Counted from the first letter of the stretch, positions 9,015-35,295 are shown. The stretch is 64,000 bases of DNA from Candidatus Manganitrophaceae bacterium (GCA_016200325.1 JACQEZ010000006.1:30302-94301); one strand, 5' to 3'. Translations and numbers: made by a program. Notes: generated from the sequence alone by a model not told the origin.

Positions 9015-9692
9015 ATGAAGAAACTGATAGTCGTACTGGCTCTATTGTTGGGAACGATTGCGGGAGGACAGAGCGCCGCGAATGCGGACGAGTTGACCTT
9101 TCCACTCGATCAGCTCATCAGCCCCATTTCCATTCCCAATATCCCCCCCCAGGCTGTGGTCACCATGGCCGATGACGGAAACAAGGTCCGATTTGATATT
9201 ACCAATATCTCGTCGGGCAAGCTTCAGTCACTTTTTTTCAATTTCAGTGGCGATCCCCTCGGCCATGACCCGCGTGATTTAAGGTTCAGCGACGTCATGG
9301 TCGAAGGTTCCGCGCTGGGTTCAGACGCATTCAGAACACGTCTGGCTCCGACCGACACGGCAAGAAGAGGAAATCTTTTTGTCGAAGGTGGGGGCTTTTT
9401 CGACGGAAAGCTTGTTCTGAACCGAGACTTTCTTCTCGGAAGCGGGGATACTCTCTCTTTTGATCTGGGTATCAATGGAGTGAATCTTTCTCCCAACGAC
9501 TTCAACGTCAAGTCTCTGGCGGATGGATCGGGAGGGCCGACCTTTACGTTGGCTTCTCGGATCATTGGCCTAAGCGGAGGGTCCGTTTGGGTCGGTGGGT
9601 TAACACCGGTTCCACTTCCAGCCTCTTTTCTTCTCTTTGGATCGAGCCTGATCGGCTTGGCTGCCATTGCCCGAAGGAAATTGGCCGCATAA
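9015..9692 (+). CDS. Secreted VPLPA-CTERM (PEP-CTERM family) exosortase substrate
   Basis: Signal peptide MKKLIVVLALLLGTIAGGQSAANA. C-terminus VPLPA-SFLLFGSSLIGLAAIA-RRK (motif, TM helix, basic cluster). Strong AGGAGG RBS. Confidence 0.88.
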   Translation: MKKLIVVLALLLGTIAGGQSAANADELTFPLDQLISPISIPNIPPQAVVTMADDGNKVRFDITNISSGKLQSLFFNFSGDPLGHDPRDLRFSDVMVEGSALGSDAFRTRLAPTDTARRGNLFVEGGGFFDGKLVLNRDFLLGSGDTLSFDLGINGVNLSPNDFNVKSLADGSGGPTFTLASRIIGLSGGSVWVGGLTPVPLPASFLLFGSSLIGLAAIARRKLAA

Positions 9693-10119: not shown

Positions 10120-11991
10120 GTGCATGGACGCATGTATCCAATTATTTTTAGCTTAAGCATGATAATGGCAGTTGGTATCCTTGGTTATTCAAAAGAGGGT
10201 TTTCCCGGTCTCACTGAAGGGGAAGATGTCATCCTATCTGAGCATTTTGATCCGATTCAAAATCGGCAAGCTGCCGGCGCTCAAGGAAGCGGTTTAGAAC
10301 TTCATGATGCCATGTTTACTCCCAGCGACAAAGGAGGACAGGCGTTACAACTCGATGCAGGGACTTACGCGACAATAAACCCTTCCAAAAGGATCAGTGC
10401 TAAGGCGGGAACCATTTCATTCTGGACCAAGCCGATTTGGGGAGAAGATAAGGGATCGCATACTTTTCTCACAATGCCCTGGGCGGATGGCAAAAAAAGT
10501 TATATGGCGATTTCATTCGGATGGTGGGAACCACAGGGACTACAACGCCTCTATTTTATTGTAAGCAACCAAGAAGGTATGCATTGTGCCGTACCATATA
10601 AGATTGATCCAGATGCCTGGATTATGATTACGGCCGTCTGGAAAAGTGGCAATGATGGCTATTGTAAGCTTTTTATAAACGGCACAAAAATCGTAGAACA
10701 AACGAAGTCCTTCTCGGGAGAATACACCAACGCTGGACCAATCTATTTAGGCTCTGATAGGGGTGCGACCGATCAGCGGGGACGGAGTGCGGTTGCACTT
10801 TTTGACGACCTTACTATCCTTGGTCGGCCGCTTTCTACGGAAGAGGTCATAAAGTCATATAAAAATGACGAAAAAAACCTGCAAACAGCCTCTGGGGGCA
10901 AATGGAAATGGCTTGAACAGGGAATCTCTATTCCCTTGGAACAAAAGAGAAATGGCCAAGGAAAACTTTTGGAGAGCCGAGTCATTTTTGATGAAGATAT
11001 GCACTGGGCATTTTCCAAAAAAGCAGCCGACGACATCTTAACAAAGGTAAAGGCAGCCGGGTTCAATGTTTACATCCCTTGTGTCTGGCATGGAAACGGT
11101 ACCTACTATCCGACATCTTTAGCACCCATGGATCCCAAGCTGGCATCGATCATTCCTGGTGGATATGATCCGTTAGCCTACCTCATTCAGAAGGCCCATA
11201 GTATGGGGATTGAAATACATCCCTGGTTTACGGTTGCACTAAGGCAGGGAACCCTCCTCCCGAAATTCTATGAAGAAGGAGTTCCGCAAGATGCTTATGA
11301 TGTACACAAACCAGAATTTAGAAAGTTTATTACGGATCTGATGCTTGATCTTGTACAGCGCTATGACGCCGACGGAATCAACCTAGATTATATTCGAACG
11401 GTCGGCATTTGTACCTCGGATGATTGTCAGAAGGATTATCTTGAAAAAACGGGTAATAACTTTAAATTAGATTATGCGCTAAGAGGAGTCTTAGGCCCTG
11501 CCAGAGATCGTATCGAGAGGTGGCAGGATGATGCGGTCACGGACATCGTCCAAAGTTTTGTAACCAACGCAAGAAAAATGAAACCCAAATTAATTATTAG
11601 TGTTGACGGCCATCCAAAACCTCCCGATGAAAAGAGAGCTCTCGAGGGAAGAGATGAACTGAGGTGGGCCAATGAAGGTTTAATTGATGTAATCTTTGAT
11701 ATGGATTACAAGGAAAGGATAGATTTTGAAACGGTTGACCGGTTGCGAAAAGCTTTAAAGCAGCCTGAGAAGGTAATCGTTATGTTTGGGAACTATGATA
11801 AGCCTGACGAAAAATCGAGTGTAATACCGAGGCCAGGGGCATTGGTTGCCAAGTATGCCGCCTTTGCCCAGCACAAGTGGCCTAATAATGGCGTAGGGCT
11901 CTACATCTATAGCATGTTAAATGATGAGCAGGTAATTGCTTTAAAGAAAGGTCCCTTCGCGGAAGATGCGCTTCCGCGCTGGAGAGGTTAA
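10120..11991 (+). CDS. Secreted LamG/ConA-like domain + family-10 glycosyl-hydrolase-like (GHL10/DUF187) protein
   Basis: N-terminal hydrophobic signal. LamG-like GTISFWTKP...WIMITAVW...KLFING...IYLGSD...FDDLTIL. TIM-barrel motifs AGFNVYIPCVW, AHSMGIEIHPWF, DGINLDYIR. Confidence 0.78.
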   Translation: MHGRMYPIIFSLSMIMAVGILGYSKEGFPGLTEGEDVILSEHFDPIQNRQAAGAQGSGLELHDAMFTPSDKGGQALQLDAGTYATINPSKRISAKAGTISFWTKPIWGEDKGSHTFLTMPWADGKKSYMAISFGWWEPQGLQRLYFIVSNQEGMHCAVPYKIDPDAWIMITAVWKSGNDGYCKLFINGTKIVEQTKSFSGEYTNAGPIYLGSDRGATDQRGRSAVALFDDLTILGRPLSTEEVIKSYKNDEKNLQTASGGKWKWLEQGISIPLEQKRNGQGKLLESRVIFDEDMHWAFSKKAADDILTKVKAAGFNVYIPCVWHGNGTYYPTSLAPMDPKLASIIPGGYDPLAYLIQKAHSMGIEIHPWFTVALRQGTLLPKFYEEGVPQDAYDVHKPEFRKFITDLMLDLVQRYDADGINLDYIRTVGICTSDDCQKDYLEKTGNNFKLDYALRGVLGPARDRIERWQDDAVTDIVQSFVTNARKMKPKLIISVDGHPKPPDEKRALEGRDELRWANEGLIDVIFDMDYKERIDFETVDRLRKALKQPEKVIVMFGNYDKPDEKSSVIPRPGALVAKYAAFAQHKWPNNGVGLYIYSMLNDEQVIALKKGPFAEDALPRWRG

Positions 11992-12095
11992 AAGTGTAAG
12001 GACTTTATTCAGATGTCCTGATCTTAGATCAGATCGTTTCCGGAATTGGAAGTTTTATTTTTATTAGAGGCGGCACGGGACAAGGACAGACCATA

Positions 12096-13442
12096 GTGGA
12101 TTCTCTTTTTCTTCTATATCTTTCTTTAATATTTTTTATAGGTCTCGCCATTATTTTTATCTCGCGGGCGGGATTGATCCTTCTGATATTATTGCCTGCG
12201 TCACAAATGCTAGGGTTCCTCGATCCTATGTCGATTGCAATCAAGGGCACATTTGATATTCATGCTTTGCTTGCGTTGATCTTAGCAGGTTCAATTTTAT
12301 TTTCAATTCATCGTCTCGGAGATCTGCGACGAGCTCGACTCTTTACTCCGATGTTAATCTTGGCAGCCTTCTGGCTATTTGGCGTGATTTATCCTGTGTT
12401 ACAAGGTTATTCTTCGCTATTTTATTCGTTGAAGGCTTCAAAAGAGTTTCTGATGATTTTTGCATATTTTGGTGTTTTTTTGTTTTTGCGAACAGAGAAA
12501 GATGTGAAGTGGGGTTGGTCTCTTTTATTGGCTCTGGGATTCTACTATGCCCTTCTTGAGATCATCGCACAAATTCTTGGATTGTCACTGTTAAATCACC
12601 TGGCATTTGCCTATAGAAAAGAGGCATTTATATTTTGGAAAGTCTATCTGCAATTTTGGCCGGTGATTTTAATAGCGCTCCTCCACAGCTATTACGAATC
12701 CGTTTATGGTCTCGGAGGAGCTTACCTGCGTACCGCGGTCGGGTTTATCGGGTTGCTGCTCACTTTTTTCCGTTCTTACTTACTAGCGACTGTATCAGTT
12801 ATTCCTTGTATGCTTTTACTTTCGAAACAGGGGTTGGACAAAACCTTTTGGAAGAGCTTTGCCCTGGTAGGCACGGCCGGCGCTGCTCTTCTGACTGTTG
12901 GGATCACTATGGGAAATGGACTTGATAAGATAGAGGGTATCTCAGACGAATTCGTTTTCTCCGGTGTTACTGAACTCGCCACTAATTCAGGTGGTGCCTT
13001 GGTCGGCAGAGAAGTTTTTGCAAGGCCGCGAAGAAAGATCATTGATAAAAGCCCATATCTGGGATATGGATTTATCGATAAGGAGTCAAAATACGGTTTA
13101 GCTGTTAAAAAGCAGGTTATAGGTGAAACGTTAGGATTTGTAGATAAAGGCGATGTAGATGTCGAAGTAAAATTCGGCTATTTGGGGGGTGCCCTTCTCT
13201 ATGGGACCTTCATTTACCTTGTAGTCATCCTGTTGGGCCTTGCACGGCGGGGTTTGAATCCTCAATTTTCTGTTCGATGTCTCACAATGGCATCTACACT
13301 AGTCATCTTTCTTTTAGTACAGCCCGTACATGCGCCATTGAGCTATAGTTTTGCTTTACTGCCGCTCTGTATCGCATTGGGTCTTATCGAAAGAGAGCAG
13401 TCCCTAATTATCGTCAGTAATAAGAGGACGCTCTCATGGTGA
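12096..13442 (+). CDS. Multi-pass membrane protein, probable Wzy polymerase / O-antigen ligase family
   Basis: About 10 or more hydrophobic segments with a large C-terminal-half loop, sitting between the hydrolase and GT/flippase genes. Assignment is mainly contextual. Confidence 0.6.
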   Translation: MDSLFLLYLSLIFFIGLAIIFISRAGLILLILLPASQMLGFLDPMSIAIKGTFDIHALLALILAGSILFSIHRLGDLRRARLFTPMLILAAFWLFGVIYPVLQGYSSLFYSLKASKEFLMIFAYFGVFLFLRTEKDVKWGWSLLLALGFYYALLEIIAQILGLSLLNHLAFAYRKEAFIFWKVYLQFWPVILIALLHSYYESVYGLGGAYLRTAVGFIGLLLTFFRSYLLATVSVIPCMLLLSKQGLDKTFWKSFALVGTAGAALLTVGITMGNGLDKIEGISDEFVFSGVTELATNSGGALVGREVFARPRRKIIDKSPYLGYGFIDKESKYGLAVKKQVIGETLGFVDKGDVDVEVKFGYLGGALLYGTFIYLVVILLGLARRGLNPQFSVRCLTMASTLVIFLLVQPVHAPLSYSFALLPLCIALGLIEREQSLIIVSNKRTLSW

Positions 13443-14596
13443 CGATGCTTCATATTCTTGAAACTCTCTCTGATTTTGGTGGTACACCGAGGAAATTACT
13501 CTATCTGACAAAGTACGCCAATCGGAATCAATGCAAATTCATTTTTCTTCTCTTCAGATCGTCTTCCTTGGACAAAGACTTCGAATCGCTGGAGAAGGAA
13601 TTCACACAACATGGCGCGACGATTCTGAAATTTAATACCACTTCCTTTTTAAAACTGGCTTGGAAAATACGATTGGAAGCAATGAGACTTGAAGCCGATG
13701 TGATCTGTACCCACTATACCCGCGCTCTTGTAGCGGGGTATCTGGCGTCAAAGAGTCTAGGCCTCCCGCTGATCCACCATGAGCATAGCAGCGCTCATTA
13801 TCGTAAAGGGATCGGGCGAGTGCTGGGAGGATTTTGCCTTCCCAGAGCGGAGGCCACCATTTGTAACTCGAAATACACGATGAATACGATTCAAACAGGA
13901 TATCCGGGCGCTACAGGAAAATTACATGTCGTCTACAATCCGGTGGAAGAGCGTCTTGTTGGCGTGGAGCGAAGGGCATTTAGAGATCAGGTGGGGGCAA
14001 GATCAAGTGACATTTTAATCGGTCATGTCGGGGGAATGATTCCACAGCGGGACCAAAAAACATTGATCAAGGCCTTCCGTGAAATCCATTCTGAATTTAC
14101 AAACACAAAATTAGTGTTGATTGGGGACGGGCCGGTCCAATCCGAGTTGAAATCCCTCGTTCAAAGTTTAGGACTAACAACAGATGTGATTTTTACCGGC
14201 TACACCCGCGATGTGGGAGAATATTTGAATGCGATTGATATCTATGTCAATCCGACCCTCGATGAAGGATTTGGAATCGCCGTCGTAGAAGCGATGTTAG
14301 CAAAGCTGCCTGTGATCTTATCCGATCAGGGGGCACACCCCGAATTAGTTTTAGAGGGGCAGAATGGATTTCTCTATCCCGGAGGGGACGCGGAGTCTCT
14401 GGCAAAAAAGGTCAAATTGCTTATTGAAAATCCTGACCAGAGAAAAAACATCGGAATAAAAGCATATGAAAGTGCAAAAACATCTTTCGCCCCATCCATC
14501 TTTGCCTCAAACTACCTTCATATAGTAGAAAGCATTTTAAAAAATTCTAAATCATCCAACCGTCCTATCCAACAGCGTGGCGCTCAATGGAGCTGA
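13436..14596 (+). CDS. Glycosyltransferase family 4 (GT-B)
   Basis: IGHVGG...KDQ-like motif, LIGDGP, EGFGIAVVEAMLAKLPVILSDQG (ExxE motif). Confidence 0.9.
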   Translation: MVTMLHILETLSDFGGTPRKLLYLTKYANRNQCKFIFLLFRSSSLDKDFESLEKEFTQHGATILKFNTTSFLKLAWKIRLEAMRLEADVICTHYTRALVAGYLASKSLGLPLIHHEHSSAHYRKGIGRVLGGFCLPRAEATICNSKYTMNTIQTGYPGATGKLHVVYNPVEERLVGVERRAFRDQVGARSSDILIGHVGGMIPQRDQKTLIKAFREIHSEFTNTKLVLIGDGPVQSELKSLVQSLGLTTDVIFTGYTRDVGEYLNAIDIYVNPTLDEGFGIAVVEAMLAKLPVILSDQGAHPELVLEGQNGFLYPGGDAESLAKKVKLLIENPDQRKNIGIKAYESAKTSFAPSIFASNYLHIVESILKNSKSSNRPIQQRGAQWS

Positions 14597-16080
14597 CCGT
14601 ACTCAAGAGAAAATTAGCCTGGGGCTCTGCCGCCGGCTTGTTCAGGGTTGGGCTGGCCATTCCGATCTATATTCTCTTAACGCCCTTTATTCTGAAGAAA
14701 CTCGGCCCGGAATTGTTTGGCGTCTGGTCGCTCAACACAATTATTATCAGCTTCCTCAACCTGACAGATTTTGGTTTCAAAAACAGCCTCGTCTATTATG
14801 TCGCGAAGGAACATGAAAAACCGGCGGAGATCAATAAGCATTTTAATGCCGTATTCTGGACTTACTTTGTAATCACCCTGTTGGCATTCACGACCGTCCT
14901 CATTCTCAGGACGGTTATCGTTAGAGACTTATTGAGAATCCCGGAACACTTTCACGACGAAGCTGTCTTTGTATTGCTGATGACCATGGGTAGTTTCGGC
15001 GTCCGGTTTTTGGCCGCTCCTTACCAAGCTGTCATCGAAGGGCATCAAGAAATTTATTACTCTCATCTGATCTCATTGTTGTGGCTTCTGGTCTATTCGA
15101 TAGGATCTGTTCTGGCGCTGTTGCTAAGCCCCGATGTTTATGCGCTTGGAGCAGTTATTCTCGCTGCCAATGTGGTCGTATATATCGGGTTCTATGGGTA
15201 TGTCCGCCGACGGTATCCGTTTATTAAAGTTAGCCTAAAACAGATCGAGCGGGAAAAACTCAAAAGCATTTTAAAATATGGGGTCGGCATCCAAATCGCC
15301 ACGCTGGTAATCGCACTCCGAGAGCCGATGTATAAAATCTTGATCGCCAGGAGTTACGGCCTCGCAAATGTAGCGACCTTCGAAATCGTCTATAAGCTCT
15401 GCACCCAACTGATCTCCGTCGTCGTCTCTCCTCTTCTCGGGGTGTCGGCCACCTCAGCCATGCTCTCTGACCGTAAGCAGGATTTAGAGAAGGTGTTAAG
15501 ACCCTTCTTCGGGTATGCCCTTTCTATATTAATCCCGTCCGCTCTTTTTTTTGAATCGTTTTCGCGGGAGTTAATCAATCTCTGGCTGGGGTCTAATCTG
15601 CTGAACGCGGCCGAAATGCTCTCGATCATTTTTGTTGCGTTCGCCGTCTATTATGTTACTGAGACCTTGTATAAAGCGATAGAAGGCTCCGGCCTCTCTT
15701 CTTACAGCGGAGCAATCCAGATCACGACTGTCATTGTTCATATCGGTGTTTTTGCATTGCTGGCCTCTTACCCGTTCTGGTCTGTTCCGATATCGATTCT
15801 CATAGGCTTTCTGGTTTTTAGTCTCAGCAACTTTTTTGTGTTTAGGTGGCGCTTTAGGGATATTACGCTCATACGACCCACTCAGATTCTTTGGGTGTTA
15901 ATACCGGGCTGCTTATACATTTTATTTCAAGTGATAGCGACAAAAGAGACCTGGCCTTTTATCTTTTCGGCATACCTGATTGCCCATCTATTCTGCGTGA
16001 GGAACGCTAAGATCTTTGATTGGATCGGGATGATCAAACAATTTTTTTCTTTGAAGATGAGACAAAGGGTGCCGTCTTGA
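14587..16080 (+). CDS. wzx: Wzx-type oligosaccharide flippase (MOP superfamily)
   Basis: LTPFILKKLGPELFGVWSL...DFGF N-terminal signature, many TM segments, located in the EPS locus. Confidence 0.82.
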   Translation: MELTVLKRKLAWGSAAGLFRVGLAIPIYILLTPFILKKLGPELFGVWSLNTIIISFLNLTDFGFKNSLVYYVAKEHEKPAEINKHFNAVFWTYFVITLLAFTTVLILRTVIVRDLLRIPEHFHDEAVFVLLMTMGSFGVRFLAAPYQAVIEGHQEIYYSHLISLLWLLVYSIGSVLALLLSPDVYALGAVILAANVVVYIGFYGYVRRRYPFIKVSLKQIEREKLKSILKYGVGIQIATLVIALREPMYKILIARSYGLANVATFEIVYKLCTQLISVVVSPLLGVSATSAMLSDRKQDLEKVLRPFFGYALSILIPSALFFESFSRELINLWLGSNLLNAAEMLSIIFVAFAVYYVTETLYKAIEGSGLSSYSGAIQITTVIVHIGVFALLASYPFWSVPISILIGFLVFSLSNFFVFRWRFRDITLIRPTQILWVLIPGCLYILFQVIATKETWPFIFSAYLIAHLFCVRNAKIFDWIGMIKQFFSLKMRQRVPS

Positions 16081-16280
16081 TCGAAGCGTCGTGCAATTTT
16101 TTATTTTTTAGGCTGCCTATTTCTTTATATGTTTGGAGCGATTCATGATTTCCCCCCTTCCCTCTGCTTTCGGTTAAGACGAAGCAGGTGGGCTGCAGAT
16201 CATTTATATGATCTGAGGAGATGTAACAATGAAAAATAAATCTCTTAGATTAATCGCTCCAACTTTGTAAGGGAGGTGGC

Positions 16281-17405
16281 ATGTTCAACAAAAAATTTTC
16301 ACGGAGACAATTCATCCAAATGTCGACTCTGGTCGCGGCCGGCTCGTTCTGCCGGCCACTCATGTCGATGGCGCAGACCCTACCGACATTGGAAAGTCGC
16401 GCCATATTTGACGAGGGGTTGAATTGGGTCACAAATGCGTCTGCCGTGAGACTTTTGGATCGGATCAAGAAGGCAGGTTTCAATGTCTTCATGCCGTGTG
16501 TCTGGCATGGGATGGGAACTACTTGGCCCTCCAGTCTGGCCCCTTGGACCACTCAGACACCCCGCATCGCAGGGTTCGATCCATTGGACAACCTTATCAA
16601 GCTGGCAGACGGTTATGATATAGAAATTCATCCGTGGTTCACCGTAACCCTACGGCAGAGAGAGTTTCTACAACAGTATTATGAAAGCGGGAGCCCGGAA
16701 AATGCATTTGATGTACACAATGATAATTTTCGTGCTTTTATCTCCGCCCTAATTACTGAAGTCGCATTAAGATATCCGGTTCAGGGAATCAATCTGGACT
16801 TTATGACGACCATGGGTATTTGTAGGGGAGCTGCTTGTATCGATCAGTATACGGCCGATACCGGACGAAAGCTTTTAGCTGATTGGAATCTTAGAAAACT
16901 GCCCGGTTACGGTGCGCAATACCTTATTGCTTGGCAAAAAGAGGCAACGACCGACATCCTGCGCCGTGTGTCTACAAAAATCCGGGGATTAAAGAAAAAT
17001 ATTCTTATTAGCATAAATGCGACTCCCGGTGTTTATGACCTGACTTTCCAGGGCGATGACAGTATTAATTGGGTCGATCAGGGATTATCAGATGTACTCT
17101 ATTGCATGGATTATCAACCCGATCCCGATACTGCAAAAATTCGAACCTGGCAGGCGGGGATGAAACGGCCCCAGGCGGTCGCATTACTCGGTGGGAATTT
17201 CGATGTGACCTCGACCGGGGTCGTTGTGGCAAGAGATGCTGCGAGGGTGGCTCAAATTATCTCCGAAGCTCGTACGATCGGCTCAGGAGACGGAGTAGCT
17301 CTCTACATTTACAGCCGATTAAGCGATGCGCAGATTCAAACACTCTCAACCGGCGTCTTTAAAACGCCTGCGGTGCCGCATTGGACACGCGCGACCGTAT
17401 CTTAG
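16281..17405 (+). CDS. Tat-exported GHL10 family glycoside hydrolase-like protein
   Basis: Tat motif SRRQFI followed by an h-region and AQT cleavage. AGFNVFMPCVWHG, IEIHPWF, GINLDF; clearly paralogous to the C-terminal domain of 10120-11991. Confidence 0.8.
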   Translation: MFNKKFSRRQFIQMSTLVAAGSFCRPLMSMAQTLPTLESRAIFDEGLNWVTNASAVRLLDRIKKAGFNVFMPCVWHGMGTTWPSSLAPWTTQTPRIAGFDPLDNLIKLADGYDIEIHPWFTVTLRQREFLQQYYESGSPENAFDVHNDNFRAFISALITEVALRYPVQGINLDFMTTMGICRGAACIDQYTADTGRKLLADWNLRKLPGYGAQYLIAWQKEATTDILRRVSTKIRGLKKNILISINATPGVYDLTFQGDDSINWVDQGLSDVLYCMDYQPDPDTAKIRTWQAGMKRPQAVALLGGNFDVTSTGVVVARDAARVAQIISEARTIGSGDGVALYIYSRLSDAQIQTLSTGVFKTPAVPHWTRATVS

Positions 17406-17521: not shown

Positions 17522-18703
17522 ATGAAGCTGGCCGTCCTGACTAACATCCTAACCCCATATCGGATTCCTCTGTTTGAAGCCTTACAACGCCGTATAGATG
17601 ATCTCACGGTATTGTTGATGGCGGAGCGGGAGGAAAACCGCGATTGGAAGCTCTCTTCCTATCGGTTTAAGACGGAGGTATTGCCGGGGGTCCATCTTAG
17701 GCCCCCCGGTCGTCCGGTTTCGCTTCATCTGAACTATGGCGTGACCCGGGCGTTGCGCCGCCTAAATCCTGATATGGTGTTGAGCGGCGGTTTTGGTCCT
17801 GCAAACCTAGCTGCCTGTCTTTATTGTCGTCTTTCCGGGAAAAAATTCATCGGGTGGGGAGAACTCACGCTACGGGAACCGATGCGGCTCTCTACCGTTC
17901 AAAAATCGATTCGGCGATGGATCACCACCCGCTCCGCCGGCTCGATTGCTTCATCCGGAGAGGCGGCTGTATTTTTTGTTCATTACGGGGCAAAACCCGA
18001 GACGGTTCTAAAAACAGTCACCCCATTTAATGTCGGTGCTTTTTACGACAGGGCGGAGGCGTCCCGGCGTGAACCAGGGTTTCTTCCCCAGCGGGAGAAA
18101 TATTCACGGCCGATCCTTCTTTCAGTGGGCCGGATAACGAACATCAAGGGATATCAAGAGCTCTTTAAGATCTATCAGCGGGTCATTGCATCGCGTCCGG
18201 AAGCGTCGCTGCTGATTGTGGGCGACGGTCCTGAGCGAGCACTTTATGAGAAAGAGGCCAGAGAGCGGGGCTGGCACAATGTCCATTTTGTCGGATTCGT
18301 GCAAGAGACAGAACTCCCCCGGTATCTTGCCCTCTCCGATCTTTTTATTTTTCATACTCTGTATGATCCATTTGGATTGGTCCTGAGCGAAGCGATGGCG
18401 GCAAAGGTCCCGGTCGTCTCCTCCATTCATGCGGCCGCGACGGGGGATTTGATCGAAGAAGGGGTGACCGGATTCCGAATCGATCCACGGGACACCGAAG
18501 CGGCTGCGGGGACGATCTTGAACGTCTTAAAGCGCTCACCGGAAGAGAGAACCGCCATGACCGAAGCGGCTTATGAACGGGTCAAGGAATGTGATATCGA
18601 GCCGTCGGCTGAGAAGATGGTTCAATTTATGGAATCGTTGTTTGAATCGAAAGAAAGGATTGGCGCCGACCCGATCCGTTCGAAAGCGGTGAATCATGTC
18701 TAA
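17522..18703 (+). CDS. Glycosyltransferase family 4
   Basis: LSVGRITNIKG, IVGDGP, DPFGLVLSEAMAAKVPVVSS. Confidence 0.9.
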   Translation: MKLAVLTNILTPYRIPLFEALQRRIDDLTVLLMAEREENRDWKLSSYRFKTEVLPGVHLRPPGRPVSLHLNYGVTRALRRLNPDMVLSGGFGPANLAACLYCRLSGKKFIGWGELTLREPMRLSTVQKSIRRWITTRSAGSIASSGEAAVFFVHYGAKPETVLKTVTPFNVGAFYDRAEASRREPGFLPQREKYSRPILLSVGRITNIKGYQELFKIYQRVIASRPEASLLIVGDGPERALYEKEARERGWHNVHFVGFVQETELPRYLALSDLFIFHTLYDPFGLVLSEAMAAKVPVVSSIHAAATGDLIEEGVTGFRIDPRDTEAAAGTILNVLKRSPEERTAMTEAAYERVKECDIEPSAEKMVQFMESLFESKERIGADPIRSKAVNHV

Positions 18704-19874
18704 AAAAGGGATACCGGAGAAAGCAACCCTCCTTTTGATCGGACCGACCCCGCCGCCGTATCACGGCGTCGGGATGGCAATGCAGGCGATTCTTGATTCG
18801 TCGATTGCGACGCAGTTTCGTTTGGTGCACCTCGACATTACCGATCGGCGCGGAATCGGCCATGTCGATCAGCCCGATCTCTATGATGTCTTTCTTTTTG
18901 TGAAGCAGTTTTTCCGGAATGGGATGTTGATCGTCCGGGAGCGGCCGGCATTGTTTTATATTCCGATCTCCCAGACGCGGATCGGGTTCATCCGGGACAG
19001 CCTCTTCATCCTCCCGGCGTTAATGATGAGATCTCGGGTGATCGTTCATCTTCATGGCGCGAATTTCGAATCCTTGGCGGACCAGGGGGGATTCCTTTGG
19101 AAACGGTATCTTGATTTTATCCTTCGGCGGGTCGCGCGGTTCATTGTGCTCGGTGAAATGCTCCGGCCGATCTTTGGTCGCTGGGCGGCCCCGGATCGGA
19201 TCTCGGTGGTTCCGAATGGGGTGATCCAGGAAAAGGCTGAAATGTCGGAGCGGCGTTTGAGCGCGCAACGACCATTTCGTATTCTCTTCTTATCGACCCT
19301 TTGTCGACAAAAGGGATTGTTCGTTTTACTCGATGCGATTCCGCTGATCGTTCGCGAGGAGAAGGACGTGGGGTTCGAGATCGCCGGCCCGTGGGCATCA
19401 GAGGATGTGCGTCGGGAAGCGGAGCGCCGGCTGACCGAAAATGGGATGACGGACCGGGTCCGTTTTGTCGGTCAGATCACCGGCGAGGAAAAGCGCCGCT
19501 TTCTGAGATCGGGCGACCTCTTCATCTTTCCGGGCGTGCAACAGGAGGGGCAGCCGCTCACGGTGTTGGAAGCGATGAGCGAAGGGCTTCCGGTGGTTGC
19601 GACCGACCGGGGATGCCTGCGGGAGACGGTGGCCGAGGGGGTCACCGGGTTTATCGTTCCCCCCAATTCGGCCGAAGCGATCGCCGAGAAGGTGATTCAT
19701 CTCATCCGCCATCCCGGCCGACGTGATCAGTTAGCGATCAATGCCGCAAAGCGGGTGAAGGAGAGTTATACGGTGGAGCAGTTTGTTTTTCGGTTGGAGG
19801 AGGTTTTTGGCCAAACGCTGATCGCTTCAGGGCGACAAAACCGAGGCGGGGTACGCCTGGAGTCGACGCCATGA
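18696..19874 (+). CDS. Glycosyltransferase family 4
   Basis: PPPYHG, VHLHG, LSTLCRQKG, EGQPLTVLEAMSEGLPVVATDRG. Confidence 0.9.
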   Translation: MSKKGIPEKATLLLIGPTPPPYHGVGMAMQAILDSSIATQFRLVHLDITDRRGIGHVDQPDLYDVFLFVKQFFRNGMLIVRERPALFYIPISQTRIGFIRDSLFILPALMMRSRVIVHLHGANFESLADQGGFLWKRYLDFILRRVARFIVLGEMLRPIFGRWAAPDRISVVPNGVIQEKAEMSERRLSAQRPFRILFLSTLCRQKGLFVLLDAIPLIVREEKDVGFEIAGPWASEDVRREAERRLTENGMTDRVRFVGQITGEEKRRFLRSGDLFIFPGVQQEGQPLTVLEAMSEGLPVVATDRGCLRETVAEGVTGFIVPPNSAEAIAEKVIHLIRHPGRRDQLAINAAKRVKESYTVEQFVFRLEEVFGQTLIASGRQNRGGVRLESTP

Positions 19875-19968: not shown

Positions 19969-21330
19969 ATGCTAAGTCATTCAGTACAAGTCATCTCTGC
20001 CAAAACATATGGAGAAGATCTCGATCGCTACCTGCCGGATACGCTCTTTTTACAAATTAAGCCGGGCGATACCGTCGTCCTGAAACCGAATTGGGTCAGC
20101 GAGTCACACAAGTATCGTCTCGATGATTGGGAATATGTCATCACCCATCCAGCCGTGATTACAGCCGTGTTGCGCAAAGTCCTGGCTCGGCTCGGTGGAG
20201 AGGGGAAGGTCATCATCACCGACGGTCCAACGACGGAGGCCTCGTTCGCCAAGCTGATCAGCCATTATCCGGTCGCCGATTGGAAAATGCTGGCGCACGA
20301 TGCGCATGTCGAACTGGAGGTCTTTGATCTACGAGAACACGAATGGGAGACCCGGGACGGAATCGTGGTAAAACGGATGGCGCTTCCAGGGGATCCGCGT
20401 GGGAAAACGGAGATTGACCTTGTGAATGAACTGAGTGAATTCCGTGGGCATCTAAAATCGAAGCGGGGCTACTGCGGCGCCGACTATGACTTAAGCGAGG
20501 TCAACCGGGCGCATGACGGCCACCACAATCTCTATAGCGTCTCCCGGAGTGTCCTGGAGGCCGATGTCTTCATTAACCTGCCGAAATTGAAGACCCACCG
20601 GAAAGCCGGTATTACCTGCTGCTTGAAGAACCTCGTCGGGATCAATACGTATAAGAATTATTTGCCGCATCATTCAGAGGGGGGTCCGTCCGAGGGGGGA
20701 GATCAATTTCCAACCGACAACGTCAATGCTAGACTCGAAGGTCCTTTGATGGCGTTCCTGAAACAGTATGTCCTGAAAAACCCGATGGTGGCCCGGGTAT
20801 TGAGCCCCCTCAATGCCGTCGGGCGGGCTGTTTTCGGAGACACCCGGGAGGTGATCCGGAGCGGGAACTGGTATGGCAATGACACCCTCTGGCGGATGGT
20901 TCTCGACCTGAACAAGGTCCTTTTCTATGGCAACCCCGATGGCACCCTTCGTCAAGATCTTTTGATCAATGCAAAATGCTATATCGGAATTGTGGATGCG
21001 ATTCTGGCGGGGGAAGGGCATGGTCCGCTGGCGCCGGAACCGGTGGAGATGGGATATCTCATTTGTGGAACCAATCCGGTAGCGATTGATGCCGTCAGTG
21101 CTTCTCTGATGGGATTTGATCCTCTTAAAATTCCGTGCATCGCCCGGGCCTTTCAGGTGGACCAGTATCGACTCTGCGATTTTAATCTGGAAGAAATCCG
21201 CGTTGAGGTGGACGGAGCAGCGTTTCTTATCCACGACCTTCCACAAGCGTATTGTATCTCCTGTGAACCGCAGTTCGGATGGAAAGGTCATATCGAGAAA
21301 ATAGAGTATGTGACCACTGCAGCAAATTAA
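19969..21330 (+). CDS. DUF362 domain-containing protein
   Basis: VVLKPNWV, ITHPAVI, DVFINLPKLKTH, ITCCLKNLVG, GEGHGP, NPVAIDAV motifs typical of DUF362. Confidence 0.8.
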   Translation: MLSHSVQVISAKTYGEDLDRYLPDTLFLQIKPGDTVVLKPNWVSESHKYRLDDWEYVITHPAVITAVLRKVLARLGGEGKVIITDGPTTEASFAKLISHYPVADWKMLAHDAHVELEVFDLREHEWETRDGIVVKRMALPGDPRGKTEIDLVNELSEFRGHLKSKRGYCGADYDLSEVNRAHDGHHNLYSVSRSVLEADVFINLPKLKTHRKAGITCCLKNLVGINTYKNYLPHHSEGGPSEGGDQFPTDNVNARLEGPLMAFLKQYVLKNPMVARVLSPLNAVGRAVFGDTREVIRSGNWYGNDTLWRMVLDLNKVLFYGNPDGTLRQDLLINAKCYIGIVDAILAGEGHGPLAPEPVEMGYLICGTNPVAIDAVSASLMGFDPLKIPCIARAFQVDQYRLCDFNLEEIRVEVDGAAFLIHDLPQAYCISCEPQFGWKGHIEKIEYVTTAAN

Positions 21331-21465
21331 TTTGGGATAGGAAGCTCCCTCGCGGGGAAGGGAGATGAGAGATCGGCGACAGAATTAACATTGAATTTAC
21401 ATCGAGTTCATTTTCTGATTCTTGGAAGACGGCATATTCATTTTCAATGGCGGATTAAAAAGTAG

Positions 21466-22941
21466 ATGATGGCGCTTCTTCATAACGTAAAAACCTGGAC
21501 CACACAGAACATTACCCGTCTGCCGATCGGGATGAATCGCTGGCTCCTGGCCCTCAACCGGAGACCCGATTACCTGTTCGGTGCGGAGTACACCCGTTAT
21601 CGGGGCTTTCTGCGAGAAGCGTCTGTTTTCTACGACAATACCCCTTCCCTTTTGGAAGCGGTGAACCGTGCAATAAAAGAGGTCGGCTATTACCGCGACG
21701 CTTACGGCGGGAAGAAGATACGCTCGGTTGCCGAATTTGAGGAGACAATCGGCTTTATCGATAAAGACACGATCTTGGAGAACTATGATCGGTTCGTCAG
21801 TCCAACGATTAACCTTGAGGCGTATGACACCGGGACCACCGGCGGGACCAGCGGCAAGCCGCTCACCTTCATCGCTCCCAAAAAGCGCTATGTGGTTGAG
21901 CTTGCCACGATGCATTCTCTTTGGGAGCAGGCGGGGTATGACTTCTCTGTCCGGGCGGTCATTCGGAACCATCGGCTGGAGGGCGACCGGGATTTTTTAA
22001 TTAATCCATTGACGCGGGAGGTGATCTTCGACGGCTTCCGTCTCACGGACGACTATTTTTTGTTCATCTATGAGACCCTTCGTCGTCTGAAAATTCGCTT
22101 CATCCACTGCTATCCGTCGACCGCGTATGAGTTCGCGACTTTTATTCATCGGAAGGGGCTTGATCCCTCTCTGATTACGGCGTTCCTCTCCGGTTCGGAA
22201 AATATTTTCGACTATCAGTTGGAGCTCATTCAGAACCGACTCGGAATCCGCTTTTACAATTGGTATGGCCACAGTGAAAAACTGGTTTTGGCCGGCTACT
22301 GCGCCGGGACCGACCACTATCATGTAGAGCCGACCTACGGCTATTTCGAGCTGATCGACGAAAAAGGCCGCGTCGTCCGCGAACCGGGGGGGCAAGGGGA
22401 GATCGTCGGAACCTCCTTCCACAACCCCGGGATGCCATTCATTCGATATCGGACCGGCGACGTTGCCGAACTCGTCGGCGATCACTGCGACGCGTGTGGG
22501 CGCCGGCTTCCGGTTCTCAAGGACATTCAAGGGCGCTGGAGCGGCAATCGGATCTACAATGGAGACGGAACCTTCGTGACCACGACCGCCTTGAACCTCC
22601 ACAACGAACTGTATCAAGTCATCAACGGCATTCAATATCTGCAGGAGCGAAAAGGGGAGCTGACCGTGTTGGTGGTCAAATCCTCCGATTACAGGGAGGG
22701 CCATGAAGCCTCTCTTTACCGCCATTTTAAAGAGAAACTTCATCCCGAGACGGTAGTGACAATCCAATATACCGATCGACTGCTGCGCAAACCGAACGGC
22801 AAGTTCGTCCATATCCTCAGCAGCGTCGACGCCGGCGCACTCCATCCTGTTCCTGATTCGTTGGAGAGAGAGTCGAAGGGGGTGCACAGGGGATCGGCGG
22901 AAATCGATCGAGATCGAATAGACATTTTGAGGGGAAAATGA
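21466..22941 (+). CDS. Phenylacetate-CoA ligase / CapK-like adenylate-forming enzyme
   Basis: ANL motifs TTGGTSGKP (P-loop), YGHSE, FIRYRTGD, IQGR, NGKF. Confidence 0.85.
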   Translation: MMALLHNVKTWTTQNITRLPIGMNRWLLALNRRPDYLFGAEYTRYRGFLREASVFYDNTPSLLEAVNRAIKEVGYYRDAYGGKKIRSVAEFEETIGFIDKDTILENYDRFVSPTINLEAYDTGTTGGTSGKPLTFIAPKKRYVVELATMHSLWEQAGYDFSVRAVIRNHRLEGDRDFLINPLTREVIFDGFRLTDDYFLFIYETLRRLKIRFIHCYPSTAYEFATFIHRKGLDPSLITAFLSGSENIFDYQLELIQNRLGIRFYNWYGHSEKLVLAGYCAGTDHYHVEPTYGYFELIDEKGRVVREPGGQGEIVGTSFHNPGMPFIRYRTGDVAELVGDHCDACGRRLPVLKDIQGRWSGNRIYNGDGTFVTTTALNLHNELYQVINGIQYLQERKGELTVLVVKSSDYREGHEASLYRHFKEKLHPETVVTIQYTDRLLRKPNGKFVHILSSVDAGALHPVPDSLERESKGVHRGSAEIDRDRIDILRGK

Positions 22942-25088: not shown

Positions 25089-25095
25089 GAAGAGG

Positions 25096-27024: not shown

Positions 27025-27755
27025 GCGCGGAGCGGATCGACATCCTCGGGGTCCCGACCGACTGCGTCGATATGAGCCGGGCCTTGGAGCGGGTGGAGGC
27101 GATGGTCGCGGGAAACCGGCCGGAAACGGTAATCGCAGTCAACCCCGAGAAGGTGATCAAGGCGAGACAAGATCCGCGGCTTCTGAGCCAACTGAGGAGA
27201 GCCGGTCTGTTGATTCCGGACGGCATCGGGGTGGTCCTGGCGGCGCGGTTCCTCCGGCTCGGCCGGATGGACCGGGTTCCCGGATCGGAATTGATGCCGG
27301 CAATCTGCGAGCGGGCGGCTCAAAAGGGCTATTCGATCTTTCTCTTTGGAGGAAGCCCGGAAGTGAATGCGCAGACGGCCGAGGTGCTTCGCAAACGCCT
27401 TCCTCAGATTCGGATCGTGGGGCGCCAGCATGGCTATGTGGCGGAGGAGGAGATGCCGGCGGTGATCGGAAAAATCAATGCGTCGGGGGCCGAGATCCTC
27501 TTCGTCGCCTTGGGAAGCCCGAAGCAAGAACTCTGGATGGAACGCTATCTTCCCGAGCTTCGAATCAAGGTCTGCCAGGGGGTCGGCGGAACGTTTGATG
27601 TCCTCTCGGGCCGGGTAAAGCGGGCGCCGCTCTTTTTTCGAAGGCTCCATCTGGAATGGTTCTACCGGTTGGCCTCTCAACCGAAACGGCTTGTGCGACA
27701 GACCGCCCTGCCGAAATTTGCATTTTTGGTATTGCGACAAAAGGTAACCGGGTAA
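27021..27755 (+). CDS. WecB/TagA/CpsF family glycosyltransferase (WecG-like)
   Basis: IAVNPEKV, IPDGIGVV, RVPGSELM, FVALGSPKQELW, GVGGTFD, RAP...LEWFYRL. ATG 27021 overlaps the upstream stop (ATGA). Confidence 0.92.
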   Translation: MSAERIDILGVPTDCVDMSRALERVEAMVAGNRPETVIAVNPEKVIKARQDPRLLSQLRRAGLLIPDGIGVVLAARFLRLGRMDRVPGSELMPAICERAAQKGYSIFLFGGSPEVNAQTAEVLRKRLPQIRIVGRQHGYVAEEEMPAVIGKINASGAEILFVALGSPKQELWMERYLPELRIKVCQGVGGTFDVLSGRVKRAPLFFRRLHLEWFYRLASQPKRLVRQTALPKFAFLVLRQKVTG

Positions 27756-27760
27756 CCGTG

Positions 27761-33504: not shown

Positions 33505-33505
33505 G

Positions 33506-34075
33506 ATGAAAAAAGGTATCGGTTGGTTAACCCTTTGGGGGATTTTTTTCCAGGCTTCCATCTTATTCGGCGTAGACGGAAAAGGAATCGAGCCGGGATA
33601 TTTGCTGGGACCGGAAGATGTCTTACATGTGTCGATCTGGAAGGATGAGGCGCTCACCCGGGAGGTGTTGGTTCGGCCCGACGGCCGGATCTCCTTCCCT
33701 TTGGTCGGCGACCTTCAGGCGGCGGGTCGAACGGTGGAAGATCTGAAGGCGGAGCTGACGAAGCGGCTGACCCCTTTTATTCCGAACCCGACCTTGTCGG
33801 TCGAGGTTCAAAAGGTGAACAGCTACAAAATTTACGTCTTGGGAAAGGTCGCCCGGCCGGGCGAATACCTGGTCGGACATGAGACCGATGTCATGCAGGC
33901 GCTCAGCCTCGCCGGCGGCTTGACCCCTTATGCCGCCGAGAACCGGATCCGGGTCTTGCGCCGGGAAAACGGAGCGCAGCAGACCTATCTCTTCCGTTAT
34001 TCGGAGGCGATTCAAGGAGAGCATCTGGAACAGAATATCCTGCTCAGACGGGGTGACGTGGTGGTTGTGCCGTGA
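33506..34075 (+). CDS. Short polysaccharide export OPX protein (Poly_export + one SLBB)
   Basis: YLLGPEDVLHVSIW, VRPDGRISFPLVGD, IYVLGKVARPG, ALSLAGGLT, LRRGDVVVVP; only 189 aa. Confidence 0.88.
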   Translation: MKKGIGWLTLWGIFFQASILFGVDGKGIEPGYLLGPEDVLHVSIWKDEALTREVLVRPDGRISFPLVGDLQAAGRTVEDLKAELTKRLTPFIPNPTLSVEVQKVNSYKIYVLGKVARPGEYLVGHETDVMQALSLAGGLTPYAAENRIRVLRRENGAQQTYLFRYSEAIQGEHLEQNILLRRGDVVVVP

Positions 34076-35286: not shown

Positions 35287-35295
35287 GGAGTTAAA

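What the first reader, a model, noticed from the sequence alone, without database searches (positions are those of the whole stretch)
10120..17405. Twin GHL10 hydrolase-like genes, one Sec + LamG and one Tat, embedded in a biosynthetic EPS operon
Seen: two paralogous TIM-barrel domains (AGFNVxxPCVWHG, EIHPWFTVxLRQ, GINLD) flank wzy/GT/wzx, with different export routes and one carrying a lectin-like module. Known: characterised GHL10 members (e.g. E. coli DigH) are cell-wall glycoside hydrolases, and other EPS systems carry a dedicated periplasmic hydrolase (PelA, PslG, BcsZ). Inference: these could be a trimming, release or dispersal pair for the strain's own polymer, a role I do not know to be described for GHL10. 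The first keeps NLDYIR whereas the second has NLDFMT, so their catalytic status may differ.
Basis: partly seen in the sequence, partly recalled or inferred. Interest (0 to 1): 0.62.

Follow-up and report, generated by a model that had tools for sequence, protein, structure and literature searches.

The report
Wzy-coupled GHL10 glycanases in slime locus
Two exported sugar-cleaving-type enzymes of an uncharacterised branch of the GHL10 family sit inside a slime-polysaccharide operon, and the same enzyme-next-to-polymerase pairing recurs in dozens of genomes from several phyla, so this branch most likely processes the cell's own polysaccharide rather than the cell wall.

Summary
ORF A (10120-11991) has a hydrophobic N-terminus, a LamG lectin module and a GHL10 barrel. 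ORF B (16281-17405) has a Tat signal and a GHL10 barrel. They are 40% identical and flank a Wzy_C polymerase, a GT4 and a Wzx flippase in a Wzx/Wzy-dependent XrtD exosortase locus (9015-37936).

A and B are not recent duplicates. They belong to two old sister clades, together about 250 clusters at 50% identity.

- In 55 of 75 related loci the GHL10 gene lies directly beside a Wzy-like membrane protein, against 3.4% by chance. The two genes are co-directional, with a median gap of 6-32 nt.
- One lineage carries a natural Wzy_C-GHL10 fusion.
- The four genes LamG-GHL10, Wzy, GT4 and Wzx move together between phyla.

The active-site signature differs from Cwp19: the proposed catalytic Asp is Tyr or Phe here. 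It is nearly invariant across both clades. ORF A has the full signature. ORF B lacks Arg176 and Asp246.

Best reading (0.55): periplasmic glycanases coupled to Wzy that process the locus's own polymer. No biochemistry exists, and a peptidoglycan or lipid-linked substrate is not excluded. I rate it a new variant of a known kind, of moderate interest. Earlier scan notes saw GHL10-like barrels in synthase-type EPS loci, but not this Wzy pairing.

The parts
9015..9692 (+). VPLPA-CTERM (PEP-CTERM type) sorting-signal protein, predicted XrtD substrate; first gene of the locus
   Evidence: TIGR03370 VPLPA-CTERM 30.1 bits (cut-off 25.35) and a weak PepA-like hit; PF07589 weak hit
10120..11991 (+). ORF A: N-terminal hydrophobic helix (signal or anchor), LamG lectin-like jelly-roll (about 10357-10848), GHL10-clade (beta/alpha)8 barrel (about 10969-11988); full family active-site signature
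   Evidence: Pfam. AF2 pLDDT 87.5 with helix 7-20, jelly-roll and barrel. Foldseek finds Cwp19, GH156 and PgaB-C for the barrel and only generic lectin folds for the LamG part. Signature. GAGG Shine-Dalgarno before GTG 10120
12096..13442 (+). Wzy_C-family polymerase/ligase-like membrane protein (11 predicted TM segments)
   Evidence: No Pfam hit itself. 5 of 7 orthologs at 49-55% identity hit PF04932 Wzy_C, best E 3.3e-10. TM count
13436..14596 (+). GT4 glycosyltransferase, overlaps both neighbours
   Evidence: Glycos_transf_1 135 bits
14587..16080 (+). Wzx-type flippase
   Evidence: Polysacc_synt_3 59 bits and Polysacc_synt 53 bits; 10 TM segments
16281..17405 (+). ORF B: Tat signal (SRRQFIQ...SMA|Q) plus GHL10-clade barrel; variant signature F174, T176, N246
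   Evidence: Pfam. AF2 pLDDT 86.7. Foldseek Cwp19 E 1.6e-18, GH156 6.5e-13, PgaB-C 2.5e-12. Tat motif. Signature. GGAGG Shine-Dalgarno
17522..19874 (+). Two further GT4 glycosyltransferases (17522-18703, 18696-19874)
19969..27024 (+). Conserved tailoring block: DUF362 protein, ANL/AMP-ligase, ADH-GFO fused oxidoreductase, heparinase II/III-like protein
27021..27755 (+). WecG/TagA-family (GT26) glycosyltransferase; likely start ATG 27021, overlapping the preceding stop
   Evidence: TIGR00696 174 bits; start scan
27656..29362 (+). XrtD exosortase with EpsI domain
   Evidence: TIGR04152 553.7 bits, cut-off 400
29393..31027 (+). WecA/MraY-family initiating phosphoglycosyl transferase
   Evidence: TIGR02380 156 bits, below its cut-off (family level only)
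31117..37936 (+). Export and regulation block: PrsT-like TPR protein, Poly_export/SLBB (Wza-like), unknown 404-aa protein, GNVR co-polymerase (PCP), AAA_31 kinase-like ATPase

Best explanation
ORF A and ORF B are exported glycan-active enzymes of an uncharacterised GHL10 sub-family. This sub-family is a dedicated accessory of Wzx/Wzy-dependent exopolysaccharide pathways, mostly exosortase-linked and initiated by WecA and WecG. Proposed mechanism: repeat units are built on undecaprenyl phosphate by WecA, WecG and the GT4 enzymes. Wzx flips them and the Wzy_C protein polymerises them at the periplasmic face. The GHL10 barrel, made together with Wzy, cuts the nascent or mislocalised polymer in the periplasm. 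This would set chain length, clear stalled polymer, or release it, as PslG, BcsZ, PelA, the PgaB C-domain, ExoK and the Tat-exported WceF do in other systems. ORF A is membrane-proximal, carries a lectin module to hold the polymer and has the full active-site signature. ORF B is a soluble Tat-exported paralog whose substrate pocket has lost Arg176 and Asp246, so it probably recognises a different linkage or decoration, or mainly binds. What is shown: domain content, fold, export signals, conserved pocket, gene pairing with Wzy, co-transfer of the cassette, and a natural Wzy-GHL10 fusion. What is inferred: hydrolytic activity, the EPS as substrate, and the division of labour between A and B.
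For: Family and fold: PF02638 above its cut-off for both ORFs. Confident (beta/alpha)8 models whose best PDB matches are Cwp19, the GH156 sialidase and the EPS-processing PgaB C-domain. Conserved pocket: about 25 residues, predominantly at the C-terminal ends of the barrel strands, are nearly invariant in 99 + 119 homologs. Linkage to Wzy: a Wzy-like membrane protein is directly adjacent in 55/75 loci, against 3.4% for genes of the own genome. 30/42 of these neighbours plus 5/7 cassette orthologs hit Wzy_C. The pairs are co-directional in 63/64 cases, with median gaps of 6.5 nt (short type) and 32 nt (LamG type). Linkage to the wider locus: of 34 loci with full flanks, 33 have GT4, 24 WecG, 18 an exosortase and 17 WecA. 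Own-genome baselines are 5.2%, 0.5%, 1.2% and 1.1%. Phylogeny: all 41 short/Tat-clade rows are in EPS context. Co-transfer: LamG-GHL10, Wzy, GT4 and Wzx are co-inherited across Nitrospirota, Gammaproteobacteria and Geobacteraceae at 49-62, 49-56, 44-51 and 41-46% identity. The genes lie in a low-GC stretch (0.44-0.48 against about 0.6). Fusion: a natural Wzy_C+GHL10 fusion has 7 sequence variants on 10 or more contigs. Export: Tat motif in 73/85 short-clade members and a hydrophobic N-terminus in 94/119 LamG-clade members. Precedent: the founding GHL10 gene cwp19 also lies in a glycopolymer (PSII) locus (PMC5765458).
Against: No enzymatic data exist for any member of this clade. All well-characterised GHL10 enzymes (Cwp19, DigH) act on peptidoglycan. 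The pocket is almost invariant although the neighbouring Wzy proteins share only about 18% identity and the GT sets differ. That is unexpected for polymer-specific endoglycanases. It fits an invariant substrate, or a conserved GlcNAc/ManNAcA core of the repeat unit. The closest taxonomic relative (Manganitrophus L004) keeps a 64%-identical ORF A next to a non-homologous Wzy. A PVC/Armatimonadota/Bacillota sub-clade with the same signature is not in EPS loci. Cwp19's proposed catalytic Asp196 is Tyr/Phe here, so the catalytic residues are unknown.
Confidence: 0.55

Rival explanations
1. Peptidoglycan remodelling. Like Cwp19 and DigH, the two enzymes would cut glycan strands of the sacculus, locally opening the wall for the trans-envelope EPS export apparatus or for exosortase-sorted proteins.
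For: Every well-characterised GHL10 enzyme acts on peptidoglycan. The best structural match is Cwp19. The near-invariant pocket across loci with unrelated Wzy and GT sets fits an invariant substrate such as the PG glycan.
Against: The gene is coupled to Wzy, not to the Wza/PCP export genes. It travels in the variable low-GC cassette with Wzy, GT4 and Wzx. One lineage fuses it to Wzy_C. Cwp19's proposed catalytic Asp196 and its Gln77 are replaced. The genome has a separate lipoprotein with a GHL10/PgaB-C-like barrel elsewhere. No dedicated PG hydrolase is known to be needed for Wza/Wzc systems (own knowledge).
Confidence: 0.15
2. Action on the lipid-linked end. The GHL10 barrel would work with Wzy on undecaprenyl-diphosphate-linked glycans. 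It would either release the finished polymer from the carrier (a step with no known enzyme in Wzy pathways, by my own knowledge) or hydrolyse stalled intermediates to recycle the carrier.
For: Tight coupling and fusion with Wzy_C, whose substrate is Und-PP-linked. The invariant pocket fits an invariant reducing end supplied by the conserved WecA/WecG initiators. Arg176 aligns with the carboxylate-binding Arg202 of GH156, so it could hold an anionic group (PMC6811678).
Against: Purely inferential. The PVC/Armatimonadota sub-clade with the same signature sits beside catabolic-type secreted proteins, which suggests an ordinary glycosidic substrate. ORF B and its kin have lost Arg176.
Confidence: 0.12
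3. Non-catalytic partner. One or both proteins (ORF B above all) would be glycan-binding pseudo-enzymes that hold or guide the nascent chain at Wzy. This would resemble what was first thought of the PgaB C-domain.
For: ORF B lacks Arg176 and Asp246, which are otherwise conserved together (11 of 12 losses are joint). The fused form has lost E38, E45, C73 and H76. The canonical acid of Cwp19/GH-A at strand 4 is absent from the whole clade.
Against: D44, H117, D173, Y278, N306 and Y342 are invariant even in the deviant forms, as expected for a working active site. The variant pocket of ORF B is conserved in its sub-lineage rather than decaying.
Confidence: 0.1

Closest known systems
Cwp19 of Clostridioides difficile (GHL10; PDB 5OQ2/5OQ3)
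   Same: Same Pfam family and best structural match (Foldseek E 1.6e-18, TM 0.68; profile E 1.7e-13). Shares the strand-3 HxWF...R motif and the strand-4 Asp (D195 = D173). Its gene also lies in a glycopolymer (PSII) biosynthesis locus.
   Different: Only about 20% identical. Cwp19's proposed catalytic Asp196 is Tyr/Phe here, and VVQVR is replaced by PCVWHG. Cwp19 is a Gram-positive S-layer protein with CWB2 repeats, reported as a peptidoglycan lytic transglycosylase.
DigH (YddW) of Escherichia coli
   Same: GHL10 family. An exported envelope enzyme of a diderm bacterium.
   Different: An outer-membrane lipoprotein that cleaves denuded peptidoglycan glycans at the septum (PMC12288456), not encoded in an EPS locus. 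I did not align its sequence here.
PgaB C-terminal domain (GH153) of the PNAG system
   Same: Third-best fold match (E 2.5e-12, TM 0.64). A periplasmic barrel encoded in the EPS operon that processes the nascent polymer before export (its role is from my own knowledge).
   Different: Belongs to a synthase-dependent pathway, is fused to a CE4 deacetylase, and shows no detectable sequence similarity to ORF A or B.
GH156 inverting exosialidase EnvSia156 (PDB 6RZD/6S00)
   Same: Second-best fold match (E 6.5e-13). Local profile match E 2.9e-4 over the strand-4 region: LELDWMR against INLDYIR. This puts family Arg176 at the position of the carboxylate-binding Arg202.
   Different: A catabolic exo-sialidase with a C-terminal beta-sandwich. 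Equivalence of its catalytic Asp14 and His134 to D44 and H117 could not be tested without coordinates.
Operon-encoded EPS glycanases: PslG (GH39), BcsZ (GH8), PelA (GH166), ExoK (GH16), WceF/AmsF/WcaM
   Same: A periplasmic glycan-cleaving enzyme encoded inside the biosynthetic operon. ExoK and WceF belong to Wzx/Wzy-dependent pathways, and WceF is Tat-exported (own knowledge).
   Different: Unrelated folds or families. None is known to be systematically paired or fused with the Wzy polymerase gene.

Membership tests
GHL10 (Pfam PF02638) | Match to the family HMM above the gathering score | tested here: met
   85.1 bits (ORF A) and 71.9 bits (ORF B) against a cut-off of 27.9
GHL10 (Pfam PF02638) | (beta/alpha)8 barrel with Cwp19 as nearest solved structure | tested here: met
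   AF2 pLDDT 86.7 and 87.5. Foldseek 5oq2 E 1.6e-18 and 6.8e-17
GHL10 (Pfam PF02638) | Active-site residues proposed for Cwp19 (Gln77, Trp127, Arg132, Asp195, Asp196, Tyr197) | tested here: inconclusive
   The profile alignment gives W119 = Trp127, R125 = Arg132 and D173 = Asp195. But Asp196 corresponds to Tyr/Phe174 and Gln77 to Cys73. Part of the set is kept and the proposed catalytic Asp is not.
Peptidoglycan glycan-strand hydrolases of the DigH/Cwp19 type | Cleavage of peptidoglycan glycan strands | not testable with these tools
   Needs enzyme assays. Gene context points elsewhere.
Tat-exported proteins (ORF B) | Twin-arginine signal peptide, and Tat machinery in the genome | tested here: met
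   SRRQFIQ followed by a hydrophobic region and SMA|Q. The RR motif is present in 73/85 clade members. TatC is present at 240 bits. The TIGR01409 HMM scores just under its cut-off, 15.8 against 16.7 bits.
Operon-encoded periplasmic EPS-processing glycanases (PslG/BcsZ/PelA/PgaB-C/ExoK/WceF kind) | Encoded within the biosynthetic operon of the polymer, recurrently | tested here: met
   55/75 loci have Wzy adjacent. 33/34 loci have GT4 and 24/34 have WecG within 10 kb.
Operon-encoded periplasmic EPS-processing glycanases (PslG/BcsZ/PelA/PgaB-C/ExoK/WceF kind) | Exported glycoside-hydrolase fold | tested here: met
   Signal sequences and GH-type barrel
Operon-encoded periplasmic EPS-processing glycanases (PslG/BcsZ/PelA/PgaB-C/ExoK/WceF kind) | Hydrolysis of the cognate polymer | not testable with these tools
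   No biochemical data for any clade member in the searched literature
XrtD / VPLPA-CTERM exosortase system (locus context) | XrtD exosortase plus a VPLPA-CTERM substrate | tested here: met
   TIGR04152 at 553.7 bits against 400. TIGR03370 at 30.1 against 25.35.
Wzx/Wzy-dependent polysaccharide pathway (locus context) | Flippase, Wzy_C polymerase, initiating transferase, OPX and PCP proteins | tested here: met
   Wzx. Wzy_C through orthologs. WecA-like protein. Poly_export and GNVR.
GH156 sialidases | Catalytic Asp14/His134 and the carboxylate triad Arg129/Arg202/Asn346 | tested here: inconclusive
   Only Arg202 can be aligned, to family Arg176 (lost in ORF B), over a 40-residue local match. 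The remainder needs a coordinate superposition. I do not file this as GH156.

The most novel reading that the evidence does not exclude
This GHL10 clade is an unrecognised core partner of Wzy. It would be a periplasmic enzyme that acts on the undecaprenyl-diphosphate-linked polymer at the polymerase. It would either terminate and release chains from the lipid carrier or rescue stalled intermediates. That would fill a step of Wzx/Wzy-dependent polysaccharide assembly for which, to my knowledge, no enzyme is known.
Probability: 0.12. Interest if true: 0.85.

Novelty: new variant of a known kind. Interest (0 to 1): 0.58.

Why it matters
Exopolysaccharide operons commonly carry a glycanase that shapes or clears the polymer. 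For Wzx/Wzy-dependent systems few such enzymes are known, and none is systematically tied to the polymerase. Here an uncharacterised GHL10 branch of about 250 clusters at 50% identity appears as a Wzy-coupled module, fused to Wzy in one lineage. It occurs in nitrifiers (Nitrospira), manganese oxidisers (Manganitrophus), methanotrophs and Geobacteraceae, organisms whose flocs and biofilms matter in water treatment and biogeochemistry.

If the enzymes cut their own polymers, they would be:
- candidate tools for dispersing such biofilms;
- a handle on chain-length control;
- grounds for a new CAZy family distinct from the peptidoglycan-active GHL10 members.

The finding also warns against transferring the 'cell-wall hydrolase' label to all GHL10 proteins.

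Tried and rejected
- Recent tandem duplication of A and B: rejected. They fall in two old clades separated by a 97% SH-aLRT branch, and each is closer to proteins of other phyla than to the other.
- LamG module as a second catalytic domain (lyase or GH16): not supported. There is only a sub-threshold Polysacc_lyase hit. The fold matches are generic ConA-like lectin jelly-rolls, including the lectin-like subdomain of neurotoxin receptor-binding domains. That reflects the common fold only.
- Internal promoters or terminators between the genes: the counts do not exceed shuffled controls.
- A curated family for either protein: none in NCBIfam.
- Distribution in the window's own phylum: 0 of 120 sampled genomes match at E <= 1e-30. 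The clade is patchy, and I could not use this sample for co-occurrence statistics with XrtD.
- Literature: searches for GHL10, YddW, PF02638, DUF187, COG1649 and UPF0748 found no link to EPS or Wzy. The 2025 DigH paper gives no catalytic residues. The DogH paper reports starch activity but conflates GHL10 with GH10.
- Residue-level superposition on Cwp19, GH156 or PgaB: not possible, because model coordinates are not exposed to scripts.
- Some loci labelled Actinomycetota, Acidobacteriota or Nitrosospira sit on very short branches next to, or nested among, Nitrospira sequences. These are probably binning errors, so I did not count them as extra phyla.
Full report
**1. The observation**

The window holds a co-directional gene row from about 9015 to 37936. 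In order, it encodes:
- a VPLPA-CTERM protein;
- ORF A (10120-11991);
- an 11-TM protein (12096-13442);
- a GT4 (13436-14596);
- a Wzx flippase (14587-16080);
- ORF B (16281-17405);
- two more GT4 enzymes;
- a DUF362 protein, an AMP-ligase and an ADH-GFO fusion;
- a heparinase II/III-like protein;
- a WecG-type GT26;
- the XrtD exosortase (553.7 bits, cut-off 400);
- a WecA-like initiating transferase;
- a PrsT-like TPR protein;
- a Poly_export/SLBB protein;
- a GNVR co-polymerase and a kinase-like ATPase.

ORF A is Laminin_G_3 plus GHL10 (85.1 bits). ORF B is GHL10 alone (71.9 bits; cut-off 27.9). The two barrels are 40% identical over 338 residues, E 2e-85.

The stretch 8-18 kb has a G+C of 0.44-0.48, against about 0.6 around it. 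This is typical of the variable, transferable part of polysaccharide loci.

Both ORFs have good Shine-Dalgarno sequences.

**2. Export**

ORF B starts MFNKKFSRRQFIQMSTLVAAGSF...SMAQT.
- The twin-arginine motif is present in 73 of 85 members of its clade.
- The genome encodes TatC.
- The short TIGR01409 model scores just below its cut-off, 15.8 against 16.7 bits.

ORF A begins with a hydrophobic helix (residues 7-20 in the model). The same holds for 94 of 119 LamG-type relatives. I see no clear cleavage site, so ORF A may stay anchored in the inner membrane.

**3. Fold and pocket**

AlphaFold2 models are confident: pLDDT 86.7 for ORF B and 87.5 for ORF A. Both barrels match best to Cwp19, the only solved GHL10 (E 1.6e-18). 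Next come the GH156 inverting sialidase (6.5e-13) and the PgaB C-terminal domain (2.5e-12), which is the EPS-processing GH153 barrel of the PNAG system. The LamG part gives only generic lectin jelly-roll matches.

I aligned 99 short-type and 119 LamG-type homologs. About 25 positions are nearly invariant in both clades, and most of them lie at the C-terminal ends of the barrel strands. In ORF B numbering they are E38, R40, D44, E45, W49, N68, P72, C73, W75, H76, G77, D100, H117, W119, R125, D173, Y174, R176, S244, D246, M276, Y278, N306, Y342 and Q351.

The profile alignment to Cwp19 places GINLDYI on GVHFDDY.
- The family Asp173 therefore equals the buried Asp195 of Cwp19.
- Asp196, the residue proposed as catalytic in Cwp19 (PMC5765458), is Tyr or Phe here.
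- Cwp19's VVQVR is PCVWHG here.

The same strand-4 region aligns locally with GH156 (LELDWMR; E 2.9e-4). This puts Arg176 at the position of Arg202, which binds the sialic-acid carboxylate in GH156 (PMC6811678). So this is a distinct GHL10 sub-family whose catalytic residues are unknown. D44, H117 and D173 are the invariant candidates, and they survive even in the most deviant members.

**4. ORF A versus ORF B**

ORF A has the full signature. ORF B has F174, T176 and N246.
- Arg176 is kept in 86/99 short-type and 119/119 LamG-type proteins.
- Asp246 is kept in 69/99 and 114/119.
- When Arg176 is lost, Asp246 is lost too in 11 of 12 cases.

ORF B's nearest relatives (63-67% identity) share this variant pocket. 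They sit in the same five-gene module: LamG-GHL10, Wzy_C, GT4, Wzx, GHL10. The variant is therefore conserved, not decaying. But because the invariant acids and histidines remain, a changed specificity is at least as likely as inactivity.

**5. Gene context elsewhere**

A scan of one genome per species returned 298 relatives. I studied the best 80 loci with 10-kb flanks. The recurring unit is not the twin pair but GHL10 next to a Wzy-like membrane protein.

*Adjacency to Wzy*
- The two are directly adjacent in 55 of 75 mapped loci and within three genes in 60.
- Only 3.4% of genes in the window's own genome have such a neighbour.
- Of 42 such neighbours, 30 hit Wzy_C. A few are flippases instead.
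- The window's own 448-aa protein has no Pfam hit, but 5 of 7 of its orthologs hit Wzy_C.
- The pairs are co-directional in 63 of 64 cases. Median gaps are 6.5 nt for the short type and 32 nt for the LamG type.

*Wider locus content*

| Gene within 10 kb | Loci of 34 non-PVC loci with full flanks | Baseline, 21-kb windows of own genome |
|---|---|---|
| GT4 | 33 | 5.2% |
| WecG-type transferase | 24 | 0.5% |
| Exosortase | 18 | 1.2% |
| WecA-like protein | 17 | 1.1% |

Related loci are not independent, so these ratios overstate significance. The pattern does hold in Nitrospirota, Gamma- and Alphaproteobacteria, and several Thermodesulfobacteriota families.

Twins in one locus occur only in the window, its close relatives, two Manganitrophus genomes and one Syntrophobacteraceae MAG.

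**6. Phylogeny and transfer**

The short/Tat clade is separated by a 97% SH-aLRT branch, and all 41 of its rows are in EPS context. The LamG clade holds EPS-linked sub-clades. It also holds an 11-row sub-clade from Planctomycetota, Kiritimatiellota, Armatimonadota and Bacillota that has no EPS genes nearby. One locus of that sub-clade sits beside DUF4838, M60-peptidase and F5/8-type-C proteins, which looks catabolic. The sub-clade keeps the same signature.

The four genes LamG-GHL10, Wzy, GT4 and Wzx are co-inherited between Nitrospira, Methylocaldum, other Gammaproteobacteria and a Geobacteraceae MAG. Identities are 49-62, 49-56 (33% in the Geobacteraceae MAG), 44-51 and 41-46% (39% in that MAG) respectively.

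Against Manganitrophus SB1:
- conserved locus genes are 74-76% identical;
- ORF A is 64% and ORF B 53% identical;
- the Wzy is not detectably related.

None of 120 sampled genomes of the window's phylum has the clade at E <= 1e-30. It is thus a patchy, mobile accessory.

An exhaustive profile search finds 247 clusters at 50% identity with E <= 1e-30, and 1915 with E <= 1e-10.

**7. A natural fusion**

One cluster (P0314, 824 aa) joins Wzy_C (residues 182-341) to this GHL10 barrel (489-754), with one extra hydrophobic segment between them. Seven sequence variants occur on at least ten contigs from two independent sources. This is one evolutionary event. It is real, however, and it argues for physical or functional coupling of the barrel with the polymerase.

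**8. Interpretation**

The best-supported reading is that this clade supplies Wzx/Wzy-dependent, mostly exosortase-linked EPS pathways with a periplasmic glycan-processing enzyme that works at or just after Wzy.
- ORF A would be membrane-proximal and lectin-assisted.
- ORF B would be soluble and Tat-exported, with a modified pocket.

This matches what PslG, BcsZ, PelA, PgaB-C, ExoK and WceF do elsewhere (own knowledge). It also matches cwp19 lying in the PSII polymer locus.

The main tension is the near-invariant pocket beside extremely divergent Wzy proteins, which share a mean 18% identity. Three explanations remain open:
- a conserved sugar of the repeat unit, for example the GlcNAc/ManNAcA core implied by WecA and WecG, with Arg176 holding a carboxylate (an inference);
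- the lipid-linked reducing end;
- peptidoglycan.

I cannot separate these in silico. I therefore give the main reading 0.55, peptidoglycan remodelling 0.15, action on the Und-PP-linked end 0.12 and a non-catalytic role 0.10.

**9. Novelty**

NCBIfam has no model for either protein. The searchable literature contains no link between GHL10 and Wzy or EPS loci. Earlier notes of this scan reported GHL10-like barrels in synthase-dependent EPS loci of other genomes, but not this clade or the Wzy pairing. Those notes are unchecked leads.

The general idea of an operon-encoded EPS glycanase is well known. What is new is the family, its own active-site signature, and the systematic coupling to Wzy. 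Hence 'new variant of a known kind', of moderate interest.

Noticed in passing
P0314 (metagenome protein, 824 aa): A natural fusion of a Wzy_C polymerase/ligase domain with the GHL10-clade barrel. Seven near-identical variants occur on at least 10 contigs from JGI and Logan. The fused barrel has lost E38, E45, C73 and H76.
   Followed up: partly
G000 contig C20, L003:1237-2577 (-): The genome's third GHL10-like gene encodes a 446-aa lipoprotein (lipobox LLAGC). It has an N-terminal YbgF/BamD-like TPR region and a barrel that weakly matches the PgaB C-domain (E 3.8e-8). It may be the housekeeping, DigH-like enzyme.
   Followed up: partly
L029-L036, L040, L042, L043, L051: A sub-clade of LamG-GHL10 proteins in Planctomycetota, Kiritimatiellota, Armatimonadota and Bacillota keeps the same active-site signature but has no EPS genes nearby. 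In L030 the neighbours are DUF4838, an M60-like peptidase and F5/8-type-C proteins, which suggests a catabolic role.
   Followed up: partly
window 11404-11427 (ORF A residues 429-436) and the matching GICRGAAC stretch of ORF B just after its strand-4 GINLD motif: A Cys-x4-Cys pair in the strand-4/helix-4 insert is invariant in the LamG-type alignment (C431, C436). It is also present in the Tat-type proteins. Cys73 of the PCVWHG motif is conserved as well. Whether these form a disulfide or bind a metal is unknown, as is why one clade uses Tat.
   Followed up: no
window 9698-9737: A perfect 16-bp inverted repeat (ctgttgagagcatcca ... tggatgctctcaacag, 8-nt loop) lies directly after the stop of the VPLPA-CTERM gene. 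A 380-nt AT-rich spacer follows before ORF A. It may be a terminator or a regulatory hairpin separating two transcription units.
   Followed up: no
window 8000-18000: G+C falls to 0.44-0.48 against about 0.6 on both sides. The drop coincides with the VPLPA gene and the five-gene module LamG-GHL10, Wzy, GT4, Wzx, GHL10. This is consistent with horizontal replacement of the variable part of the locus.
   Followed up: partly
window 25096-27755: The heparinase II/III-like gene ends at 27024. The WecG-type transferase most likely starts at ATG 27021, giving an ATGA overlap preceded by GGAGG. The block ADH-GFO, heparinase-like, WecG recurs in many related loci.
   Followed up: partly
L014, L019, L074: Loci labelled Solirubrobacterales, Nitrosospira and Acidobacteriota carry GHL10 sequences that sit next to, or nested among, Nitrospira ones; L019 and L074 are nearly identical to a Nitrospira sequence. 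These are probably mis-binned contigs.
   Followed up: no
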